From NCBI GenBank assembly GCA_040437565.1, contig JBDOQK010000065.1, forward strand, positions 124,001 through 186,999: a stretch of DNA of 62,999 nt, read 5' to 3'. The notes beneath the pieces are model-generated. The model had not been told where the DNA came from. It saw nothing but the letters and a program-made list of their open reading frames with translations, and searched no databases. This document shows, in pieces, positions 6,641 through 16,224 of this stretch (positions are counted from its first letter, which is position 1; each line of letters starts with the position of its first letter). The stretch is from Albugo candida (taxonomy: Eukaryota). The translations under genes were made by a program, and so were the position numbers.

Positions 6641-9460
6641 TCAGAATTTCCAGTCTGGAGTAGCATCCATGGCCCAGACAAATTTTTCCCGCAAAGTCTT
6701 TGCAAAAACAGCGGATATTGGCACCTCATTCTACAGAGAAAGGCACATGCATTCGATGTATCAACAATAGGACGTAGTCTTTGACAGTAAGACGTACCCG
6801 TTTGCACCATGCAACTGTGATACGAGGATCCATATAATTGATCTTGGAAGTTCCTAGCGCGACTTGCTTGTTGTCTGATTTGTCTTGCAGTCGAATTGCT
6901 AGCGTATTGACCTTCTTTTTCCACGCATCACTTCGTTTCTTCACTTGTTCTAAAGACGGTGTTTTTGGAAACAAGTGACTTTGTGCTTTCTTGGCAAGCA
7001 AATCCTTCAGATCCTTTTGATCTCCTTTCTCTTTCTCATCTCCGTTTTCGTTGGCTACGTTTTGCTTTAATTGAATGGATTTGGACTTTCCACTTTGGAT
7101 AAACGTTTGCATCTTTTTCAAATCTTGCAATTGCTCTTTCAGCTGGTCTAATTGGGCAGTCATCTTTTCGAGTGTGTTGTCAAAAGACTTTGGAACCGTG
7201 CGCTGATGATTACACAGAATGGCGACTTCGCGATTGGCGTCATTGTACGCCACCACTTTAACGTTGGTGTCCAATTTTCCGTCAGGATCCAAAGCGTAAG
7301 GCAGCTCCTTCTCCAGTGTTACAGAAGCGTTGAATGTACGAAACACCTTGGCAGTCAAACCGGGCATCAATGAGCTCAAATGCTTGTTCAAGTCTGAAGT
7401 TGCCAGCTCGTCAAACACTTGATCCATTTTGCTTTTTTTGTGGCAAAACATCTTCAAATTCGAGTACACTTGTTTTCCAACTTGACCGTATTGAGCCAAT
7501 GTGACTGTGTTGTTGTACGGCATGGAATCTTTACCGAGAAACGCGAGCGTCAATTCACAGTTTTCATCATTGAAGGACATGTGCTCCACACGAAGACTAC
7601 AGCACCCAACAGTATCGGCCTCGTCTTCTCCTTTTTCGTTACCCACACGAAGCGCCAGNNNNNNNNNNNNNNNNNNNNNNNNNNNNNNNNNNNNNNNNNN
7701 NNNNNNNNNNNNNNNNNNNNNNNNNNNNNNNNNNNNNNNNNNNNNNNNNNNNNNNNNNTGGTGTCCAATTTTCCGTCAGGATCCAAAGCGTAAGGCAGCT
7801 CCTTCTCCAGTGTTACAGAAGCGTTGAATGTACGAAACACCTTGGCAGTCAAACCGGGCATCAATGAGCTCAAATGCTTGTTCAAGTCTGAAGTTGCCAG
7901 CTCGTCAAACACTTGATCCATTTTGCTTTTTTTGTGGCAAAACATCTTCAAATTCGAGTACACTTGTTTTCCAACTTGACCGTATTGAGCCAATGTGACT
8001 GTGTTGTTGTACGGCATGGAATCTTTACCGAGAAACGCGAGCGTCAATTCACAGTTTTCATCATTGAAGGACATGTGCTCCACACGAAGACTACAGCACC
8101 CAACAGTATCGGCCTCGTCTTCTCCTTTTTCGTTACCCACACGAAGCGCCAGTACGTCAATCACCCACATGGCGGTCGACCGTTGTTGCGTAGAGCGATC
8201 TTTTGCCTTGAGGCCACTAGTATAATTCTTTCGGATTCTGTCAATGTGCTTTTTCAGCTGTCGTGCTTTTTCATACTTTATCATATCCGATTTTCCCTTG
8301 AAGCTCGAACTCGCAGCCAGCCAAACATATTTGATTCCACCCATTACGTTCTCATTCCAGTATGCCAGCCATGATACTGTATCTCGATGTATAACTTCTT
8401 TCCACGCATGTCCTGGCATATTACAAACGGGCACCCGGTCCGAGATGCCAACATTCACAGTGACTTCTTCTGGTAAGACGCGTTCCTTAAGAGTTCCAGT
8501 CTTTGGGTGCTCACCCCGTCCTCGAAACAAACCAGGCGGCTCAATTCTATAATTCCCGACTTTTTCCAAGTGACCATCTACAATAGCGAATCCATTCGTA
8601 AATTGATCCAATTCTTTACGTTCTTTTTCCAGCTGTTTCTCCTCTTTCGTCCTATTTTTCTTCTCTTCACGTGTTATGTCCAAGTGCTGCCGAATCAGTG
8701 AGAAATCACAGAGATCGAAATCTTTGATAATGTGATTTTTTCCGAGCAGCTTTTGTAAGTCTTGAAAGAAATTCTGGTTGAATATTTTACGTGTTTTCGG
8801 ATTGCCCAGCTGCGGACCATCGGGAGGTATCGCAGCATAAAAGCTGACAATTTCTTCTTGAGCCGGAGTGAGCTTTAGAGGTTTCCCTTTATATAATAAG
8901 GAGACTCCATGAGGTGCATATGCTGGAGGAAAGAAAACACCATTGTGCTCTAGCGTCCGCCACTGTATCCCCTCCGGCAATTCCTCTGCTTTCCACCAGC
9001 GATACGCCTTGATGGCCATATCCAAACGCTCCGCTTTAGAATGCACTTTGAGTTTGTGGACACTCTTTCTCGTGACTTCTGTTTTGATCTGCACTTTGAC
9101 TTCTCGTTTTGGCTTTTTTGATGGGTTTGCCGAAGACGTTTCCTTTTGACAGATCTTTCGCTTTTGCACCAATTCACTTTCATCCGTTTTCGTCTTTTTC
9201 GTATTCGTTTTAGATTTCGATTTTCTCATCTGCGAAATCGGAATATCGTCGCTGTCGTCAGAGTTGTCATCGGATGACCATACTTTAGAGCTTTTGAAGC
9301 GCTCTGTAGTGGAAGTCTTTTGCTTAATTCGACTTCGTACTGTCTTGAGCTTGTTTGTCTCCGTTTTCACTACAGATTTCCCGTTTCTCTGCTGCTGTAT
9401 CTTGTTTCGTAGCTGTGAAATTGGAATCAAATCATCTTCATCAGAGCTTCCGCAATCCAT
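6641..9460 (-). CDS. TOP1: DNA topoisomerase I (type IB)
   Basis: Motifs WRTLEHNGV, EPPGLFRGRGEHPKTG, ADTVGCCSLRVEH, GLTAKVFRTFNAS and the catalytic Tyr in SKINYMDPR. Intron 6731-6797 gives ...WCKR/NEVPISAVFAKTLREKFVWAM...KF*. An internal segment is duplicated across gap 7659-7758. Confidence 0.97.
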
Positions 9461-9700: not shown

Positions 9701-10876
9701 ATGGATGCAAAAGTTTGGATCGCGCAAATAAGCGTTGCCTTTTGCGTGACATACACTGTCAATTATGCAAAAAAACGCATCGCTCGACGCCGAATAAAAC
9801 ACTCAACCACCCGCACACTTCATATTCCATCCATTCCGTCTGTAACTCCAATCGCATCCGCTCAAAAAGACGACTCTAATAGCGCTCCATTACAATCCGT
9901 CACTGTGCGCGTTCCCGCGACAACTGCCAATATGGGCCCGGGATTCGATACAATCGGAATGGCGCTGGACATATGGAATGAGATCAAAGTGGAGATACTG
10001 CGCAATTGCAGCGCAAACACTCCACAATTTCAGCTTTCGCATGAAGGCGAAGGCGCAGAAGAGCTCCCAACCAATGATTCCAATTTGATTATTGTGGGAT
10101 TTCGTGCGGCGTACAAAGCCGTTGACACGCCTCTGCCCTCACATGTGCGTATCCATTCGAAAAATCTCATTCCCTTTGCGCGCGGACTCGGCAGCAGCTC
10201 TGCTGGAATTGTTGGAGGTTTGCTTGCAGGATTGGCGCTCTCTGGAAAGCGCTTACCCGTACGAGGACAAGAAACACTGCTACAGCTAGCGTCTGAGATC
10301 GAAGGACATCCTGATAATGTGGCGCCAGCTATCTACGGTGGACTTCAGCTTGGAATCTTTGCAGAGAATCGATGGTATTCTTCCAGGGTCCAAATTCCAG
10401 ACGGCTTGCAGTGCGTCATGTTTATCCCCGACACTACTGGTCCCACAAGTATCGCTCGAGCCATTCTTCCCGGTACAGTGGAGCGTCAACAAGCTGTCTT
10501 TAACATTGGGAGAGCAGCGCTGCTGGTAAATGCATTTCGATCCGGAAACTTGGATGAGCTCAAATATGCGACCCAAGACAGTTTGCATCAGCCACAACGC
10601 GGTGAAACGCAATATCCGCATCTTGATCCGATGATCCAAGCCGCTCTATCCGCTGGAGCACATTGCTGCTTTCTCAGTGGAGCTGGTCCCACCGTTCTGG
10701 CGATCACAAGCGGTCGATCAGGAGATATATTCACACAAAAACTCGGTGAACGACAGGAAAGACAGGTTGCTGACGCCATGCGCGGAATTGCCGCTTCAAT
10801 GAAAATTTCCGGATGTGTAGTTATCACTAATCCCGAACACAACGGTGCAGGCATTTCCGACTTGGTTCGAGCGTAA
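9701..10876 (+). CDS. THR1: Homoserine kinase (GHMP family) with N-terminal extension
   Basis: VRVPATTANMGPGFD, PFARGLGSSSA, EGHPDNVAP, LSGAGPT motifs. Confidence 0.95.
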   Translation: MDAKVWIAQISVAFCVTYTVNYAKKRIARRRIKHSTTRTLHIPSIPSVTPIASAQKDDSNSAPLQSVTVRVPATTANMGPGFDTIGMALDIWNEIKVEILRNCSANTPQFQLSHEGEGAEELPTNDSNLIIVGFRAAYKAVDTPLPSHVRIHSKNLIPFARGLGSSSAGIVGGLLAGLALSGKRLPVRGQETLLQLASEIEGHPDNVAPAIYGGLQLGIFAENRWYSSRVQIPDGLQCVMFIPDTTGPTSIARAILPGTVERQQAVFNIGRAALLVNAFRSGNLDELKYATQDSLHQPQRGETQYPHLDPMIQAALSAGAHCCFLSGAGPTVLAITSGRSGDIFTQKLGERQERQVADAMRGIAASMKISGCVVITNPEHNGAGISDLVRA

Positions 10877-10914
10877 TGTAGCGAAATGCCATTATCCGAA
10901 GATTGGTCTCATTC

Positions 10915-13776
10915 TCATTCTTGGCTTCTCTTCCTTATATTTGTGAATAGCACGGCTGTTATCATCCCATTCGCGTGCATGGATTCCTGACCACACAATA
11001 GAAGGCCTTGCTGACCGTCCGAGGATGTTCCCATGATCGCTGCCGACTGAAAATGCTTCCTAATGGCCTTGGCAATCGGCTTGATCCTTCCATTCATCAA
11101 GCGAGGATAGTTGCTGCTTATGCTCATCACGCATCCGACAATATCATCGCGATCCAGACGATGAGCCCCCACGTGCATCATTTCTGTAAAGCCTCCGATA
11201 ATTTGGTCGGGAATTCTCTGAACATCTACTGTCATGAGACGCAAATGCTCGCCATTTCGTACTGGCGCATTGAGACACAATGCGAATTCTTCGTCAGCGC
11301 ACTCGGGTTGAATGACTTGATACTTTGAAAACTGCGTGGTCGTATGCATACGATCTTCCTCGTCTTGTGTCAGTTGTTCGCGACAGAGAGGATAATGAAG
11401 CGGAACCACACTGCAGCTTGTGTCGTACTTGCACGGATCCCCCACAAAATCGTGCAAGAGATCATAACAGGCTTTGTTGAGCTCCAGGAGTGCGGGATTT
11501 CCATTCAAAGTATCGATTCTTTTGCCCGAGCAATGTGAGACAACCAGCGGCTTGACCGCGTCATGTTCATAGCATGTGAAGAAAGCATGCGCGATCTCCA
11601 CACTCGGAGAGCAAAATGCCATCGCGATCCCACGCTGTGTCACATTTCGATTGATTGATGTCCAGGAGCAGATTTGTGTGGCGTCATATTGTTTGGGTCC
11701 GTTTGGATGGTATACGCAGGCACAAAGTGCATCAGAAAGCGCGCTTGCTTCCGGGGTCACACTTTCCTGTTCGCTTTCGGAAATCGGTGCCGTTGCAAGA
11801 TCGGGGCATTGATTCGAACAATTTGGACAGGACACAGAACGACTGCGTACAGAGCATCCGGCGAGAAACGATAGAGTGGAATCCACCAAATCATTCGCAG
11901 TCTCCATGACAGCTGCTTCGTCGTTATAGCTTGTCTGCATCCAAATCAAATCGGCGGCCTCTCCATTACACACTTTGCCATATTCTTGTGCCAGGCATTT
12001 CTTGACTCCTTCAGAGACGGAATCCACGCCAAAATCAGCATTAATGACCGAATAAAAGCCTTCAGGGTCGTAAATACCCCATAATGCAAAGACCGGACCC
12101 TGGGGCACTGCATTTTTATGTGTGAAAATTCCATCACTGGAGCTTCCTCCCATAAATAACGTCTCATTTGGAACCGATTGTTTCAATTGCTCGTATATTA
12201 TGAGACCATCATGAGCGAGTGAATACGATACGATCATCAAATGAGGAGCTTTGTTATTCAGGTCCTGACAAAGCATCGAATAGGCTGAGTGAACCGCTAT
12301 TGCCGCATCCGGGTCATAAGATAAAGCGCTTGCAATTCGAATCGATGAATCCGTATCGACTGGTTGCTTCGATTTGTTTTCCAAGAGCACATGTTCCTTA
12401 GAGGCTGATGTCGAAGTAAGTGAAACTTCTCTCTCTGGTGCTTGACGGATGAATTGGTCCCTCGAGCTTGCGTCTTGGGCCTCCGGCATGTTGCTAGTAT
12501 GAAGACGTACTTTGGAAAGACAAAGCAAACAAAGCCGAACTGGCTGCTCACAATATGTCCATTTCTCGCCACAACGATTGCAAATAGCTCTAGAACAACT
12601 TCTGCAATGCTTTCGAAGCTTGAGAATGGAAAAGGTTGAGTGGCAAAATGAGCAATGTGATGCTTTTTTCCTTGATGCTGAACAGATTTCTGGTGCTGTT
12701 TGTAAATCAAACTGATCCAAATCGATATCGTACGACCCAAACCGCTGTTTTCGATACGAATTTTCAGGAAAAGCCTGACTCCAATCGCTACAGATAACCG
12801 TACTGTCCGAAGCGGTTCTCTTTAGAATTTCACGGCCAATCTGATCGCGGATGTTACTTAGCCGATTTGCGTACGCAATCGCTACTTCCTGTGCCATTTC
12901 TTCGTGCAATGGACTCGGAAAATCAATTGTCACAGAGCATATGACATGACATGAATTTGGGTTTTTCTCAGATGGGAGAACAAGATGGAAGCCATTTTGT
13001 ACGACTGAACGTTTACAGTTGTTAATAAAACCAGTGAGAAGATTCTGTTCTGCGAGAGAGAGAGTGGAAATCACTCTACTGGTCAAGTTATCGCTCAACG
13101 AGTGAAAGTACTGAAAACCAATTGGAATTGGATCAGTTGATAGCGTTGCGTATTCCATAAAACAGAGATCGACTGGCTCAGGTGACAAACTCTGTATTCG
13201 ATGAGCCTGCCACTTTATAGTCGTTCGAGGGAATTTTGTATCGTTTGAGGAAGATAGAGATTTCAGAACTGAGGCCTGCAAGCATCCTGGAAAGACTTGT
13301 GATTCCAGCTTCTGATACGCTTCAGAACCGTTTGGAGCCAGGAATTCCACCATCTCCGTTACATTTGCGTTCATATCACACGAAATTCTAAAAATTAAAT
13401 TATTTTGCGAGTTTGGCAGTGCTCTCTGATAGATTTCCACGTCTTTGACCTTTGTCATATAAGTCCATCGTCCGCGTACATCTTCTGCTTTTGTGAGCCT
13501 TTGAGCTGATACCCTCAGCTTTTCAATCAATTTAAAAGCGTAAGTAGCATCCTCCACATCACCAATCAATTTGGCTGAGCAACTCGATAGAGCGTTCGCA
13601 ATGGCATGGAATTCCTCAATATTTCTTAATGTGGTTTTATGATAGGCTTGAGCCACGCGTTGTGTTTTATATTGAAAGAAGGATTTTGTGGGGTTTCGTC
13701 CATCGATATTTCTTGATTGAGTACCACATTTAAGTATTTCAAATGCTGCTGTATTAGTTTTAGTGTAAGACTTCAT
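10915..13776 (-). CDS. START-like + FYVE zinc finger + FIST (FIST_N/FIST_C) domain protein
   Basis: N-terminal oomycete START-like region (WTYMTKVKDVEIY, IKWQA...DLCFMEY); FYVE CSFC...RKHCRSCSRAICNRC...CLLC at about 12510-12655; FIST-like C-terminal half (FMGGSSSDG, RIDTLNGNPA, APVRNGEHLRLM, GQQG...HANGMITAVLF). First in-frame ATG 13776; an upstream exon is possible. Confidence 0.75.
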   Translation of the reverse strand: MKSYTKTNTAAFEILKCGTQSRNIDGRNPTKSFFQYKTQRVAQAYHKTTLRNIEEFHAIANALSSCSAKLIGDVEDATYAFKLIEKLRVSAQRLTKAEDVRGRWTYMTKVKDVEIYQRALPNSQNNLIFRISCDMNANVTEMVEFLAPNGSEAYQKLESQVFPGCLQASVLKSLSSSNDTKFPRTTIKWQAHRIQSLSPEPVDLCFMEYATLSTDPIPIGFQYFHSLSDNLTSRVISTLSLAEQNLLTGFINNCKRSVVQNGFHLVLPSEKNPNSCHVICSVTIDFPSPLHEEMAQEVAIAYANRLSNIRDQIGREILKRTASDSTVICSDWSQAFPENSYRKQRFGSYDIDLDQFDLQTAPEICSASRKKASHCSFCHSTFSILKLRKHCRSCSRAICNRCGEKWTYCEQPVRLCLLCLSKVRLHTSNMPEAQDASSRDQFIRQAPEREVSLTSTSASKEHVLLENKSKQPVDTDSSIRIASALSYDPDAAIAVHSAYSMLCQDLNNKAPHLMIVSYSLAHDGLIIYEQLKQSVPNETLFMGGSSSDGIFTHKNAVPQGPVFALWGIYDPEGFYSVINADFGVDSVSEGVKKCLAQEYGKVCNGEAADLIWMQTSYNDEAAVMETANDLVDSTLSFLAGCSVRSRSVSCPNCSNQCPDLATAPISESEQESVTPEASALSDALCACVYHPNGPKQYDATQICSWTSINRNVTQRGIAMAFCSPSVEIAHAFFTCYEHDAVKPLVVSHCSGKRIDTLNGNPALLELNKACYDLLHDFVGDPCKYDTSCSVVPLHYPLCREQLTQDEEDRMHTTTQFSKYQVIQPECADEEFALCLNAPVRNGEHLRLMTVDVQRIPDQIIGGFTEMMHVGAHRLDRDDIVGCVMSISSNYPRLMNGRIKPIAKAIRKHFQSAAIMGTSSDGQQGLLLCGQESMHANGMITAVLFTNIRKRSQE

Positions 13777-14028
13777 CCACTTCACCCGTTCAGAACGTTT
13801 AATGTATCTATAAGAAAAGCGCTGGTAGTCGATTCGGGTTGATCAATGAGCCAAACCCATTTCGCGTGTGATCTCTATGACACTTCCATCAAAGTACGGA
13901 ATCATACTTACGCAGACGGTCCATCGAGGTACCTCCTCACGGCCGATCAGAACACAAGTGATCGAATTCTGATGTATACTTTTTATATAGAAAGCGAGAT
14001 GCGAATTGGTAAATAAATCGTGTTCTAG

Positions 14029-16224
14029 TTAAAGCAGCTTAAGGTTGAAATTTGCGAGGTCTTTCTCCGAGTATTTATGATGAGCGCTGCTGTATTTCCA
14101 ATCTTCCGATTGCGCGCGAGTTGATCGTTTGACGGTAGCGCAGGTCTTTAGAATAGCAGCTTCCTTCTCTGCCAAGAGAACAATTCTTGGTCCGAGTTGA
14201 GAAGACTCGAGTTTACCATCTTTAGCCGTCGCGGTAGGAGTAGCCTCTGCAGCCGTTTGACACCTCCTGATACCTACGACCAAATCGCCCATGGTTCTTG
14301 TCCTATCACGATTCCCAGCTTCGCAATCATGTCTTGCTGATGCTTCTGTGACCGGGTAGCTCGTCGATCTTGTCGAACCGCGCGCTAACATATCCTGTGG
14401 CGCAAGACACGAATCCCGAGAGCAACGATTCGCTGAAGTGCGTGACGATTCGTGAAGATCTCCAGTTTGGGTATGTCGCGGGGTGAATTGCATGCGAACA
14501 CTAGAGCTGATCCTGGAAGCTGCATCACTTGCACTGGAAGGTCCAAAAAGATCACATAGGATACATTCCCGAAAACTTCCTCGAGCTGAGCCACCAGAAA
14601 GCTGTTTATTTTCCAGTACATTATCATCATCCAGGTACGATAGATCGTTTGTTGCGTGATTCCGGGGAAAGAACGTGATGCGTTCGGCAAAATTATAGCG
14701 CATACTGTTGGTGCAGGGATCATTCTTCAGCATGAGCATCGCTGAAGTCTTTCGAACGCAGCATTTCTGGCAGATGAATGAAGTGCATGTAATGCAGCGA
14801 ATCTTTCTTCGCAGCATCGAAAAAGATGTGAGACAGATGGCACAGATCTGTGATTTCGAGGCTCCCGTACTTTTTCGACGAAATTGATTTCGTATCATAC
14901 TGGCTGCCGAGACAGATGGATCTAAACCAGCTTCTCGTATTTGTTCCTTCCACTGCTTTGAAAGCACCACACGTAATGACGCCATCTGATGAGCAAAAAA
15001 ATCAAAAAACTCCAAGCTGAGTAGGTGACTCGATATTGGACGGATCTCTGGAATGTACACCCGACACGTCAGAATGACTTTACAAACGTTTGCATTCGAT
15101 GTTTCCTCAATCTTATAAAGCCAATCACGAATGTAATACATCAAACATGATTGCTGGGGTTTGTTTTTCTTCCTCATGGTAATTCTCGCACGAGCTTCCT
15201 GCAGATGTAGTTGTTTTTCATCAATTGATCGCCGATATACATAAGCTTTACGAAGAAGTTTCGTTCTCCGCTCACTGTTGCTTGAATGGCCAGAATCCAC
15301 CAAAGATGAATGCACCAAATCATCCATCAGTAATGCTCGATTTTTGTTTCTAGACCGCTCCACGTCTTGTGTTTGATGGACACTACTGACAGGGCTATTT
15401 TCTACACTGGAAACATTACTTATCGTTTTGTCACTTTCACCAAAACTTATTGAACTTTCGATAACTTCTTCTTTGGCATGTCTCAAAGTCTCGCGTGGAG
15501 CAGGTATTGTGCTCGCTTGTAATGAGACCGCCTTTTCTGGCACATCATAGCGAGCATATTCAGCATAACAGACCTCAAATATATCCCTGGTATTTTTCGA
15601 GAATTGTGATGCCAAATACTTCAAATTCATTCTCGGAAGGGCTTCACGAGGGTCCTTGTTCAATCGCGAATGACCACATATTTTCGTTGACGCAAAACCT
15701 TTGATAGTGTGCATGCTGATCCAATATTGTTCCCGAACATCCGCAGTTGACAGAATCTCGACAACAGTTTCAATGGACCCTGGAATTCGAGTACAGCCTC
15801 TGTATTCCTTCTCGTAACAACGTAAAACGTTGGGCTCAATATTTTCGACTTCCCTATTTCTACCAGTAACTTGGCCTTGGTTTCCAGCTTTAGCATTCAT
15901 GTCAAAGTGTCTCGTAGTAGTCGTTTTGAGGATTTCATCCTCGGAGGAGGGAATACGTTCATAAAGCCGTACACCATCAATCTCTTTCGATAATATATAC
16001 GCCTTCCGTGGGTCCTCGCTATTAACGCTCCGGATGGCTTTTTCAGCGTGCTTTTCAATAGTTTCCACATGTGTCGAATTTTGCGTTCCAGAGCCCCATA
16101 AAAAGCGCTCGACGCTATTTTTGAATTCATCATTCGCTTTTATTGTGCGCGCGCATTGGACTGATTTCTGTGCGTCAAACTTTTGCGATCCACTTTGTGT
16201 GTGATTTCGTAATGATCGAAGCAT
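14029..16224 (-). CDS. START-like + FYVE-type zinc finger protein with disordered tail
   Basis: DGVRLYER, IPGSIETVVEIL and FEVCYAEYA (START-like); CAIC...RRKIRCITCTSFICQKC...RECILC (FYVE with long insert). First ATG 16224. Confidence 0.75.
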   Translation of the reverse strand: MLRSLRNHTQSGSQKFDAQKSVQCARTIKANDEFKNSVERFLWGSGTQNSTHVETIEKHAEKAIRSVNSEDPRKAYILSKEIDGVRLYERIPSSEDEILKTTTTRHFDMNAKAGNQGQVTGRNREVENIEPNVLRCYEKEYRGCTRIPGSIETVVEILSTADVREQYWISMHTIKGFASTKICGHSRLNKDPREALPRMNLKYLASQFSKNTRDIFEVCYAEYARYDVPEKAVSLQASTIPAPRETLRHAKEEVIESSISFGESDKTISNVSSVENSPVSSVHQTQDVERSRNKNRALLMDDLVHSSLVDSGHSSNSERRTKLLRKAYVYRRSIDEKQLHLQEARARITMRKKNKPQQSCLMYYIRDWLYKIEETSNANVCKVILTCRVYIPEIRPISSHLLSLEFFDFFAHQMASLRVVLSKQWKEQIREAGLDPSVSAASMIRNQFRRKSTGASKSQICAICLTSFSMLRRKIRCITCTSFICQKCCVRKTSAMLMLKNDPCTNSMRYNFAERITFFPRNHATNDLSYLDDDNVLENKQLSGGSARGSFRECILCDLFGPSSASDAASRISSSVRMQFTPRHTQTGDLHESSRTSANRCSRDSCLAPQDMLARGSTRSTSYPVTEASARHDCEAGNRDRTRTMGDLVVGIRRCQTAAEATPTATAKDGKLESSQLGPRIVLLAEKEAAILKTCATVKRSTRAQSEDWKYSSAHHKYSEKDLANFNLKLL

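What the first reader, a model, noticed from the sequence alone, without database searches (positions are those of the whole stretch)
10915..13776. START-FYVE-FIST fusion: a candidate membrane-targeted small-molecule sensor
Seen: START-like N-terminus, 8-Cys FYVE and a roughly 470-aa C-terminal region with FIST_N/FIST_C-like motifs plus a CPNCSNQC insert. Known: FIST is mainly a bacterial sensory domain (including haem/NO-binding NosP) and is rare in eukaryotes (FBXO22-type); oomycetes have expanded FYVE fusions with sensory GAF domains. Inference: a bacterial-type sensor swapped into that scaffold, possibly sensing NO, haem or amino acids at endomembranes.
Basis: partly seen in the sequence, partly recalled or inferred. 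Interest (0 to 1): 0.72.

Follow-up and report, generated by a model that had tools for sequence, protein, structure and literature searches.

The report
Albugo START-like, FYVE, FIST fusion protein
This is an intact gene of the white-rust oomycete Albugo candida for a three-part protein (lipid-pocket fold, membrane-lipid zinc finger, bacterial-type FIST module) that belongs to a family found across oomycetes whose FYVE-FIST part is already in print, so it is a real but only moderately new finding.

Summary
Window 10915-13776 (-) is one 953-aa ORF with three parts. There is a START-like fold at about residues 65-330, seen only at fold level with no Pfam START hit. There is an 8-Cys FYVE finger at 369-423, above Pfam's cut-off. 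There is a complete FIST_N+FIST_C module at about 479-948 (AF2 pLDDT 87.9; FBXO22 FIST Z 20.5; phmmer E 1.8e-15 to bona fide FIST proteins). The "CPNCSNQC" insert is an Albugo-specific, disordered, non-conserved loop.

The gene is an Albugo paralogue of an oomycete-wide family found in Pythium, Phytophthora and Thraustotheca. Its FYVE motif is variant: RKHCR, with the Trp displaced by a 42-aa insert. It has lost the family's conserved N-terminal peptide. It differs at 7 of 28 FIST consensus positions.

FYVE+FIST in oomycetes is already published (P. sojae PsFYVE1), and START-FYVE is in a 2026 preprint. In the tree the oomycete FIST modules group with other eukaryotic multi-domain FIST proteins (Cafeteria, Rozella), not inside a bacterial clade, so recent horizontal transfer is not supported. 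Binding of NO, haem or amino acids cannot be tested here. The only experimentally studied eukaryotic FIST modules bind proteins. No transcript data were found.

Verdict: a new member of a known kind, of moderate interest.

The parts
10915..13776 (-). Whole coding sequence, 953 aa plus stop (P0001); a single uninterrupted ORF.
   Evidence: A 99%-identical 953-aa protein (P0003) occurs in other assemblies. DNA contigs of 4 runs cover what they cover of it without indels.
12787..13584 (-). START-like (helix-grip) fold, residues about 65-330. Predicted order of elements: helix, 3 strands, 2 helices, 4 strands, inserted helices, 2 strands, long C-terminal helix.
   Evidence: Secondary structure (low-confidence model). 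Foldseek: all 16 PDB matches at E<=0.001 are START domains. The Atlas model gives TM 0.63-0.67 to START clusters. No Pfam START hit.
12655..12780 (-). Insert of 42 residues (333-374) between the conserved Trp332 and the first FYVE cysteine. It is absent from non-Albugo relatives; the A. candida paralogue P0012 also has extra residues here.
   Evidence: Alignments.
12508..12672 (-). FYVE zinc finger, residues 369-423. It has eight Cys. The basic motif reads RKHCR instead of R(R/K)HHCR, the RLC motif is kept, and there is no WxxD next to the finger.
   Evidence: Pfam 31.4 bits against 27.8. Motif table. Motif definition from passages of the PsFYVE1 preprint. PDB FYVE domains matched a family profile, e.g. 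Hrs 3zyq at 6.1e-13.
12343..12507 (-). Linker, residues 424-478. It is poorly conserved and predicted without confident structure.
11497..12342 (-). FIST N part, residues about 479-760. Pfam FIST N of six bacterial-type proteins maps to 512-760.
11704..11835 (-). Albugo-specific disordered loop inside FIST N, residues 648-691. It holds CPNCSNQC (650-657).
   Evidence: pLDDT below 50 at model residues 181-224. Absent in relatives. Different sequence in A. laibachii P0016.
10933..11493 (-). FIST C part, residues about 762-948. It holds the conserved G-Q-Q-G ... H934-x-N936-x-M938 end motif.
   Evidence: Mapping of Pfam FIST_C from six bacterial-type proteins. phmmer second stretches. Model and FBXO22 match across model residues 12-481.
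13843..13924 (-). Decayed remnant of the family's conserved N-terminal peptide (MDRF...VEPxR...). 'MDRLRKYD...' is read in one frame. 'YFDGSVIEITR' is read in the frame of the main ORF, closed by an in-frame stop at 13843-13845, upstream of the present start codon.
   Evidence: Three-frame translation compared with the N-termini of 10 relatives. No indel in contigs of other strains over this stretch.

Best explanation
Shown: the gene encodes a cytosolic, non-secreted multi-domain protein of Albugo candida. It belongs to an oomycete-wide family built as START-like fold + FYVE finger + FIST_N/FIST_C. It is one of two Albugo paralogues of that family.

Inferred mechanism:
1. The FYVE finger places the protein on a phosphoinositide-bearing endomembrane. 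This is PI3P in relatives with the canonical motif and less certain for this copy.
2. The START-like pocket holds a hydrophobic molecule, such as a lipid, sterol or terpenoid.
3. The FIST module is the recognition end. It has no catalytic output domain behind it, so any signal must pass by binding a partner protein, possibly gated by a small ligand held in the bacterial-type FIST core.

This copy is a diverged member. It has a variant FYVE motif, has lost the N-terminal family peptide, and carries seven substitutions at FIST consensus positions. Where the A. laibachii fragments cover those positions (6 of the 7), they are substituted too, five of them by the same residue, so this is a stable lineage state rather than fresh decay.
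For: - Architecture.
- Family range: full-length relatives include Pythium oligandrum and Phytophthora lilii, P. nicotianae/infestans/cactorum and P. kernoviae, and Thraustotheca clavata. An Atlas cluster has 119 members, 89% with FIST and 86% with FYVE, all Oomycota where known.
- Species and paralogy: the neighbour's cluster is named A. candida. The A. candida paralogue is P0012 and its A. laibachii counterpart is P0013. Window + P0012 + P0013 form a clade at 99/95.
- Not secreted: no hydrophobic N-terminus in 14 of 14 proteins (19-residue Kyte-Doolittle maximum 0.57 or less in the first 30 windows).
- Bacterial-type FIST core: 21 of 28 consensus positions are kept here, including D570, E620, H934 and N936, and 26-28 of 28 in eight non-Albugo relatives.
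- A. laibachii fragments carry the same S, K, N and A, A substitutions.
- PI3P binding by a FYVE of a FYVE-FIST protein, and protein binding by its FIST_C, were shown for PsFYVE1 (preprint passages). FBXO22 FIST binds BACH1 through its third repeat (PMC11185555 passages).
Against: - No transcript evidence of any kind.
- The START reading rests on predicted models only: my model has pLDDT 47, and the Atlas model of the whole protein has pLDDT 0.61. There is no sequence-level START hit.
- This copy's FYVE lacks the first His of HHCR and the adjacent WxxD, so membrane targeting may be weakened or altered. Its A. candida paralogue has lost the motif altogether.
- No ligand, partner or localisation is known for any member of this exact family.
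- Non-synonymous polymorphism is high: 7 of 10 SNPs in one strain, and 14 aa differences to P0003. The A. laibachii counterpart is annotated as two fragments. Both would also fit relaxed constraint.
Confidence: 0.6

Rival explanations
1. A NosP-like haem/NO (or amino-acid) sensor acquired from bacteria and fused to an oomycete membrane-targeting scaffold.
For: - The FIST core is of the bacterial sequence type. Among the nearest non-oomycete phmmer hits, the two that carry names, Marinobacter and a Myxococcota MAG, are bacterial FIST_N+FIST_C proteins of about 400 aa (E 2.6e-12 and 2.7e-12); the best such hit, at E 1.8e-15, is unnamed.
- Consensus polar residues are kept.
- FIST proteins NosP and CdpA are reported to bind NO or haem (review passages).
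- The fold is related to small-molecule enzymes: chorismatase Z 14.7 and barbiturase Z 11.3.
Against: - The tree puts the oomycete FIST modules with other eukaryotic multi-domain FIST proteins and not inside the bacterial set, so no bacterial donor is indicated.
- The haem-binding residues of NosP are not known to me and were not in the texts I read, so no test was possible.
- There is no partner kinase or output domain.
- FBXO22 FIST has no ligand pocket and is insensitive to haem.
Confidence: 0.15
2. A PsFYVE1-type effector: a secreted protein that enters host cells by PI3P binding and uses FIST_C to bind plant RZ-1A-type RNA-binding proteins.
For: It has the same FYVE+FIST_N+FIST_C core as PsFYVE1, which the preprint reports as needed for virulence, and Albugo is a plant parasite.
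Against: - No signal-peptide-like N-terminus here or in 13 other family members examined. The preprint itself says only PsFYVE1 has one.
- The family also occurs in Thraustotheca clavata and Pythium oligandrum, which are, from my own knowledge, not plant pathogens.
- The FYVE motif here is not classic.
Confidence: 0.1
3. A paralogue under relaxed constraint on its way to loss: still an open frame, but no longer doing the family's job.
For: - The N-terminal family peptide is lost through a frame change and an in-frame stop upstream.
- The FYVE motif is variant and the Trp is displaced.
- 7 of 28 FIST consensus positions are changed.
- 7 of 10 strain SNPs are non-synonymous.
- The A. laibachii counterpart is annotated as two short fragments.
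Against: - A 2.86-kb frame is open in all strains seen.
- 79% identity to A. laibachii over FIST_C, with the same substitutions shared, implies purifying selection since the two species split.
- All eight Zn cysteines and the H-x-N-x-M motif are kept.
Confidence: 0.12

Closest known systems
PsFYVE1 (Ps136834) of Phytophthora sojae, bioRxiv 10.1101/2021.12.02.470886 (passages and one section read)
   Same: An oomycete protein with one FYVE finger followed by FIST_N and FIST_C, said there to be conserved among oomycetes.
   Different: - PsFYVE1 has a signal peptide and a classic FYVE motif. This protein has neither.
- The preprint does not mention a START-like N-terminal domain ('start' occurs 0 times).
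- Orthology is not established.
Stand-alone bacterial FIST_N+FIST_C proteins (the NosP type)
   Same: The same two Pfam domains, the same consensus residues (21 of 28 here), and direct phmmer similarity (E down to 1.8e-15).
   Different: The bacterial proteins are about 400 aa, stand alone and work with a partner kinase. This one is a C-terminal module of a 953-aa eukaryotic protein, and haem or NO binding is untested.
FBXO22 FIST domain (PDB 8ua3/8ua6/8s7e)
   Same: The same three-repeat fold over the whole module: Z 20.5, rmsd 3.6 A, 286 residues.
   Different: - About 10% identity, and no sequence-level match.
- FBXO22 has an F-box and serves as a ubiquitin-ligase substrate receptor. No F-box is found here.
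START-FYVE proteins PITG_07422/07423 of the Phytophthora mating-type cluster, bioRxiv 10.64898/2026.04.23.720443 (passages read)
   Same: An N-terminal START-like domain followed by a FYVE-like finger, with weak database matches. The authors propose a role in handling or perceiving a lipid-like hormone.
   Different: Those proteins have no FIST module and sit beside a P450. No P450 is among this gene's neighbours, and the authors found no orthologues outside the Peronosporales.
Oomycete START-like+FYVE+GAF and START-like+FYVE-only proteins (Atlas clusters)
   Same: The same N-terminal scaffold by predicted structure: TM 0.68-0.78 by query.
   Different: The C-terminal module is different (GAF or none). 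These are automatic clusters that I did not examine further.

Membership tests
FYVE zinc finger (PF01363) | Pfam model above its gathering score | tested here: met
   31.4 bits against 27.8, residues 369-423; 34.3 bits on the N-terminal part alone.
FYVE zinc finger (PF01363) | Eight zinc-binding cysteines in four CxxC pairs | tested here: met
   C375/378, C391/394, C399/402, C416/419.
FYVE zinc finger, PI3P-binding type | Central R(R/K)HHCR motif | tested here: not met
   It reads L-R-K-H-C-R: the first His is Lys. Eight of the 10 other family members that have the finger aligned keep HHCR. Motif as defined in the preprint.
FYVE zinc finger, PI3P-binding type | WxxD just before the first cysteine | tested here: not met
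   The conserved Trp332 is followed by SQA and lies 42 residues before C375.
FYVE zinc finger, PI3P-binding type | C-terminal R(V/I)C motif | tested here: inconclusive
   It reads R414-L-C416. The Arg is kept, and Leu stands there in all canonical relatives too.
FYVE zinc finger, PI3P-binding type | Binding of PI3P | not testable with these tools
   Needs a lipid overlay or liposome assay.
FIST (PF08495 + PF10442) | Pfam models above their gathering scores | tested here: inconclusive
   The window protein scores 23.0 for FIST N against 23.2, with no FIST_C hit. Among relatives, 12 of 12 full-length rows hit FIST N and 10 of 12 hit FIST_C.
FIST (PF08495 + PF10442) | Significant direct similarity to bona fide FIST_N+FIST_C proteins over both halves | tested here: met
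   phmmer E 1.8e-15 to 1e-3 to 130 proteins, most with two stretches. 43 of 48 sampled carry FIST N and 33 of 48 carry FIST_C.
FIST (PF08495 + PF10442) | Three-repeat FIST fold | tested here: met
   Model pLDDT 87.9. FBXO22: Foldseek E 2.2e-9; VIA Z 20.5 across model residues 12-481.
START (PF01852) | Pfam model match | tested here: not met
   0 of 13 family members at E<=10.
START / Bet v1-like helix-grip fold | Helix-grip fold with a long C-terminal helix | tested here: met
   Met at predicted-model level only. All 16 PDB matches at E<=0.001 are START domains, from a model of pLDDT 47. The Atlas model gives TM 0.63-0.67 by query to clusters whose aligned part is PF01852.
START / Bet v1-like helix-grip fold | Binding of a lipid in the pocket | not testable with these tools
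   Needs lipid-binding or lipid-transfer assays.
NosP-type haem NO sensor | Haem binding and NO response | not testable with these tools
   No haem-ligand residues were available to compare. The review says the mechanism is little known.
NosP-type haem NO sensor | Stand-alone FIST protein working with a co-encoded histidine kinase | tested here: not met
   It is a fusion protein in a eukaryote. Its neighbours are a GHMP kinase, topoisomerase I, a DnaJ protein and an ankyrin protein.
PsFYVE1-type secreted effector | N-terminal signal peptide | tested here: not met
   Hydropathy maximum of -0.26 in the first 30 windows. This is a simple hydropathy test, not a dedicated predictor.
PsFYVE1-type secreted effector | Orthology to Ps136834 | not tested
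FBXO22-type F-box FIST protein | F-box before the FIST domain | tested here: not met
   No F-box family among Pfam hits at E<=1.

The most novel reading that the evidence does not exclude
START-like+FYVE would be an oomycete-specific receptor chassis. It would sit on endomembranes, hold a hydrophobic signal molecule (a sterol or a terpenoid hormone of the kind made at the Phytophthora mating locus), and carry interchangeable C-terminal sensor modules: none, GAF or FIST. The FIST version would then be a true two-input sensor that couples a lipid ligand to a small soluble ligand bound in a bacterial-type FIST core. That would be the first ligand-gated FIST protein in a eukaryote. The published 'effector' PsFYVE1 would be a housekeeping signalling protein read in the wrong context.
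Probability: 0.15. Interest if true: 0.7.

Novelty: new member of a known kind. Interest (0 to 1): 0.38.

Why it matters
FIST is one of the least understood widespread sensory domains. Passages of a review that I read say little is known of how it binds anything.

The oomycete family keeps the bacterial consensus core almost untouched (26-28 of 28 positions in the eight Pythium/Phytophthora relatives), yet sits in a eukaryotic, membrane-addressed, lipid-pocket context. A canonical member from Phytophthora or Pythium, rather than this diverged Albugo copy, would therefore be a convenient soluble eukaryotic handle for asking what FIST binds.

The finding also bears on the PsFYVE1 effector claim. 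The family has an unreported START-like domain, has no signal peptide in the 14 proteins examined, and occurs in oomycetes that do not infect plants.

For this window itself the gain is annotation. It holds two adjacent START-like/FYVE genes, and this one is a diverged paralogue.

Tried and rejected
- Transcript evidence: no RNA holder is listed for 10700-14100. The four runs laid are contigs, with no joints, indels or loose ends. Introns, the true start and the one-gene-or-two question stay open.
- Word-based homologue searches with the N-terminal part and with the family alignment returned only the protein's own cluster.
- NCBIfam: 0 families.
- PDB by sequence: the family profile found only FYVE domains plus weak chance-level rows. 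The FIST profile found nothing at E<=10.
- Own genome: not held, so paralogues could not be counted in the assembly.
- Introns as an explanation of the two Albugo inserts and of the broken upstream peptide: I read the sequence by eye. I found no in-phase GT...AG pair that joins the upstream peptide to the ORF while keeping its conserved part, and no AG in the last 60 or so bases of the loop insert. This was not a computed splice-site scan.
- A mating-locus-like cluster: no P450 among 7 neighbouring ORFs.
- Earlier notes of this scan: nothing near the locus or by words.
- The conserved acidic N-terminal peptide of relatives (..EDE[FY]DAVEP..) reminded me of an FFAT-like ER-targeting motif. This is recollection only. 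The fit to the recalled consensus is poor, it was not tested, and this copy has lost the peptide anyway.
- CPNCSNQC as a metal site: rejected as unsupported, because it is in a disordered loop and is not conserved in A. laibachii.
Full report
**What is there.** Window 10915-13776 on the minus strand is a single open frame of 953 codons. It lies in a compact, intron-poor stretch of about 42% G+C. On one side is a GHMP-kinase gene (9701-10876, +). On the other is a second FYVE-type gene (14029-16224, -; P0002). Topoisomerase I, DnaJ and ankyrin genes lie further off. The cluster of the neighbour P0002 holds proteins named Albugo candida, so the window is from that species or a very close strain. 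A 99%-identical 953-aa protein (P0003) is present in other assemblies.

**The FYVE finger.**
- Pfam gives FYVE at residues 369-423, 31.4 bits against a cut-off of 27.8.
- All eight zinc cysteines are present.
- The central motif reads RKHCR instead of R(R/K)HHCR.
- The conserved Trp (W332, followed by SQA) is separated from the first cysteine by a 42-residue insert.
- R414-L-C416 is kept. The motif definition comes from passages of the PsFYVE1 preprint.
- Eight relatives from Pythium, Phytophthora and Thraustotheca keep xHHCRxCG with the Trp next to the finger.
- The A. candida paralogue P0012 has lost the basic motif altogether, and the P. kernoviae model P0015 lacks the finger.

The finger is real, but PI3P binding by this copy is uncertain.

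**The FIST module.**
- On its own the window protein just misses Pfam's FIST N cut-off (23.0 against 23.2) and gives no FIST_C hit.
- Six full-length relatives (31-38% identity, 97-98% coverage) remove the doubt. Together with the window protein, 7 of 7 hit FIST N (best 1.1e-16) and 5 of 7 hit FIST_C.
- An exhaustive phmmer search with the last 486 residues against 1.84 billion representatives gave 130 proteins at E<=1e-3, 18 at <=1e-10 and 7 at <=1e-30.
- I scanned 48 of these 130. Of them, 43 carry FIST N and 33 carry FIST_C.
- Most hits are proteins of about 400 aa matched in two stretches that cover both halves.
- An AlphaFold2 model built on 75 sequences has pLDDT 87.9 and pTM 0.86.
- The best PDB match is the FBXO22 FIST domain: Foldseek E 2.2e-9, probability 1.0; VIA Z 20.5, rmsd 3.6 A, 286 residues spanning model residues 12-481.
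- Next come chorismatase (Z 14.7) and barbiturase (Z 11.3). These are the same neighbours that the authors of the FBXO22 structure report for the three-repeat FIST fold (PMC11185555, passages).
- Pfam boundaries of six bacterial-type proteins map to residues 512-760 (FIST N) and 762-925 (FIST C).

**The insert.** The CPNCSNQC string (650-657) lies in a loop, residues 648-691. The loop is predicted disordered (pLDDT below 50) and is absent from non-Albugo relatives. The A. laibachii fragment P0016 has a different sequence there. I see no support for a metal site.

**The START-like part.**
- No Pfam START match appears in any of 13 family members at E<=10.
- My own model of residues 1-439 is poor (pLDDT 47, pTM 0.34; 13 sequences).
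- Its order of elements is that of a helix-grip domain. With that model, all 16 PDB matches at E<=0.001 are START domains (StAR 3p0l 6.2e-6, STARD13, STARD5, STARD4, MLN64, CERT, STARD10).
- The ESM Atlas holds this very protein. Its own model, residues 60-335, aligns to clusters whose aligned part is PF01852: STARD9 at TM 0.66, a plant PH-START cluster at 0.67, STARD13 at 0.65, and a bacterial START cluster at 0.63 by query and 0.82 by target. The Pythium relative gives the same picture.

I accept a START-like fold at predicted-structure level. Membership of Pfam START was tested and not met.

**The family.**
- Relatives carry names from Pythium oligandrum and Phytophthora lilii, and from P. 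nicotianae, P. infestans, P. cactorum, P. idaei, P. aleatoria and P. kernoviae.
- Others are from Thraustotheca clavata and from Albugo candida and A. laibachii.
- The Atlas cluster has 119 members, 89% with FIST and 86% with FYVE, all Oomycota where known.
- A second, more distant START-like+FYVE+FIST family exists: P. infestans P0062 and Achlya hypogyna P0114.

**Paralogy in Albugo.** In a maximum-likelihood tree of the FIST region (73 rows, 397 columns), the 13 rows of the first family form one clade at 100/100. Within it the window groups with A. candida P0012 and A. laibachii P0013 at 99/95. The closest relative of the window protein is A. laibachii P0010 at 79%, so Albugo has two paralogues.

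**State of this paralogue.**
- The window paralogue has lost the family's conserved N-terminal peptide (MDRF..VEPxRPSSFD). That peptide is present in 10 of the 12 other START-like+FYVE+FIST proteins listed and absent from P0062 and P0114.
- A recognisable remnant lies at 13843-13924. It is read partly in another frame and is closed by an in-frame stop before the present ATG.
- Contigs of other strains show no indel there.
- The window protein differs at 7 of 28 positions that are at least 85% conserved across the FIST alignment. The positions it keeps include D570, E620, H934 and N936.
- Eight relatives from Pythium and Phytophthora keep 26-28 of 28.
- Where the A. laibachii fragments cover those positions, they are changed too, mostly to the same residue. 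The divergence therefore predates the split of the two species and has been kept since.

**Origin of the FIST module.**
- Seven rows are multi-domain: P0028 is Cafeteria roenbergensis, P0057 is a Rozella allomycis 7tm_3-FIST protein, and the TIR-FIST and other rows are unnamed.
- These seven group with the 15 oomycete rows, apart from 51 stand-alone rows of about 400 aa.
- The five stand-alone rows that carry names are bacterial: Marinobacter, a Myxococcota MAG, Neomegalonema, Pseudoalteromonas.
- The split has SH-aLRT 99 in the quick tree and UFboot 96 / SH-aLRT 64 in the careful tree, whose bootstrap had not fully settled.
- Two fragments (P0010, P0016) were left out, and the tree is unrooted.

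This does not show where FIST came from. It gives no sign of a bacterial donor nested next to the oomycetes, and it shows that FIST fusions are more varied in eukaryotes than the F-box type.

**What is in print.**
- A full-text search for FIST + FYVE + oomycete found 2 papers. One is the 2021 preprint on P. sojae PsFYVE1. It describes a signal peptide, one classic FYVE and FIST_N+FIST_C. It reports PI3P binding through the FYVE motif and binding of plant RZ-1A proteins through FIST_C, and it says the protein is conserved among oomycetes. I read passages and section 5. The word 'START' does not occur in it.
- A search for START domain + FYVE + Phytophthora found 1 paper. This 2026 preprint calls START-FYVE a combination not reported before and suggests a role in deploying or perceiving the mating hormone (passages).

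The FYVE-FIST fusion and the START-FYVE pair are therefore each in print. The three-part reading of this family did not turn up in these two searches.

**How it most likely works.** Shown here: the architecture, the family, the lack of a hydrophobic N-terminus and the lack of any catalytic output domain. Inferred from here on:
1. The FYVE finger addresses the protein to a phosphoinositide-bearing endomembrane.
2. The START-like pocket holds a hydrophobic molecule.
3. The FIST module recognises a partner protein, possibly under control of a small ligand in its conserved core.

The near-complete retention of the bacterial consensus in canonical relatives argues for a shared biochemical property with bacterial FIST proteins. 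On the other side, FBXO22 and PsFYVE1, the only eukaryotic FIST modules with experiments behind them, work by protein binding, and FBXO22 has no ligand pocket. I put about 0.6 on the combined reading. Most of that weight is on identity and architecture, and much less on any particular ligand.

**Rivals.** A NosP-like haem/NO sensor of bacterial origin gets 0.15. A secreted PsFYVE1-like effector gets 0.10. A paralogue sliding towards loss gets 0.12.

**Verdict.** There is no evidence for recent transfer, the ligand cannot be tested, and the fusion is already described. This particular copy is a diverged Albugo paralogue, so it is not the best member to study. It is a new member of a known kind, with interest of about 0.38.

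Noticed in passing
window 14029-16224 (-): The adjacent gene (P0002, 731 aa; cluster named Albugo candida) is another FYVE-type protein on the same strand. Its Pfam FYVE score is 23.6 bits, below the cut-off, and its basic motif reads RRKIRC. Its N-terminal part shows weak similarity to the START-like region of P0001 (BLASTP E 0.001, 21% over 183 aa). The two look like a tandem pair of START-like/FYVE genes.
   Followed up: partly
window 13296-13688: In the contigs of runs X1 and X6, all 10 differences from the window over 10700-14100 fall within about 400 bases of the START-like region, and 7 of the 10 change the residue. P0003 differs from P0001 at 14 residues spread over the protein. This may be a recombinant or fast-evolving segment.
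   Followed up: partly
A. laibachii proteins P0010 and P0016 (relatives, not in the window): The A. laibachii counterpart of this gene is annotated as two neighbouring short models, AlNc14C168G7933 (234 aa, FIST_C) and G7934 (156 aa, part of FIST_N ending in the loop). This is either an assembly or annotation break or real disruption at the variable loop.
   Followed up: no
window 6726-9460 (-): Eukaryotic topoisomerase I is split over two overlapping ORFs (7550-9460 and 6726-7580). Both hit the catalytic-core model, which suggests a short intron or a frame change.
   Followed up: no
relatives P0050, P0057, P0058, P0081, P0105, P0123, P0028: Other FIST fusions turned up in the search: class-C GPCR (7tm_3)+FIST, including Rozella allomycis; TIR+FIST; and multi-pass membrane+FIST in Cafeteria roenbergensis. 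These are eukaryote-type architectures beyond the F-box form.
   Followed up: partly
N-termini of relatives P0004-P0009, P0012, P0014, P0015, P0017: A strongly conserved acidic N-terminal peptide (MDRFxLDDVEDE[FY]DxVEPxRPSSFDM) of unknown role heads the family. It is lost in the window copy.
   Followed up: no
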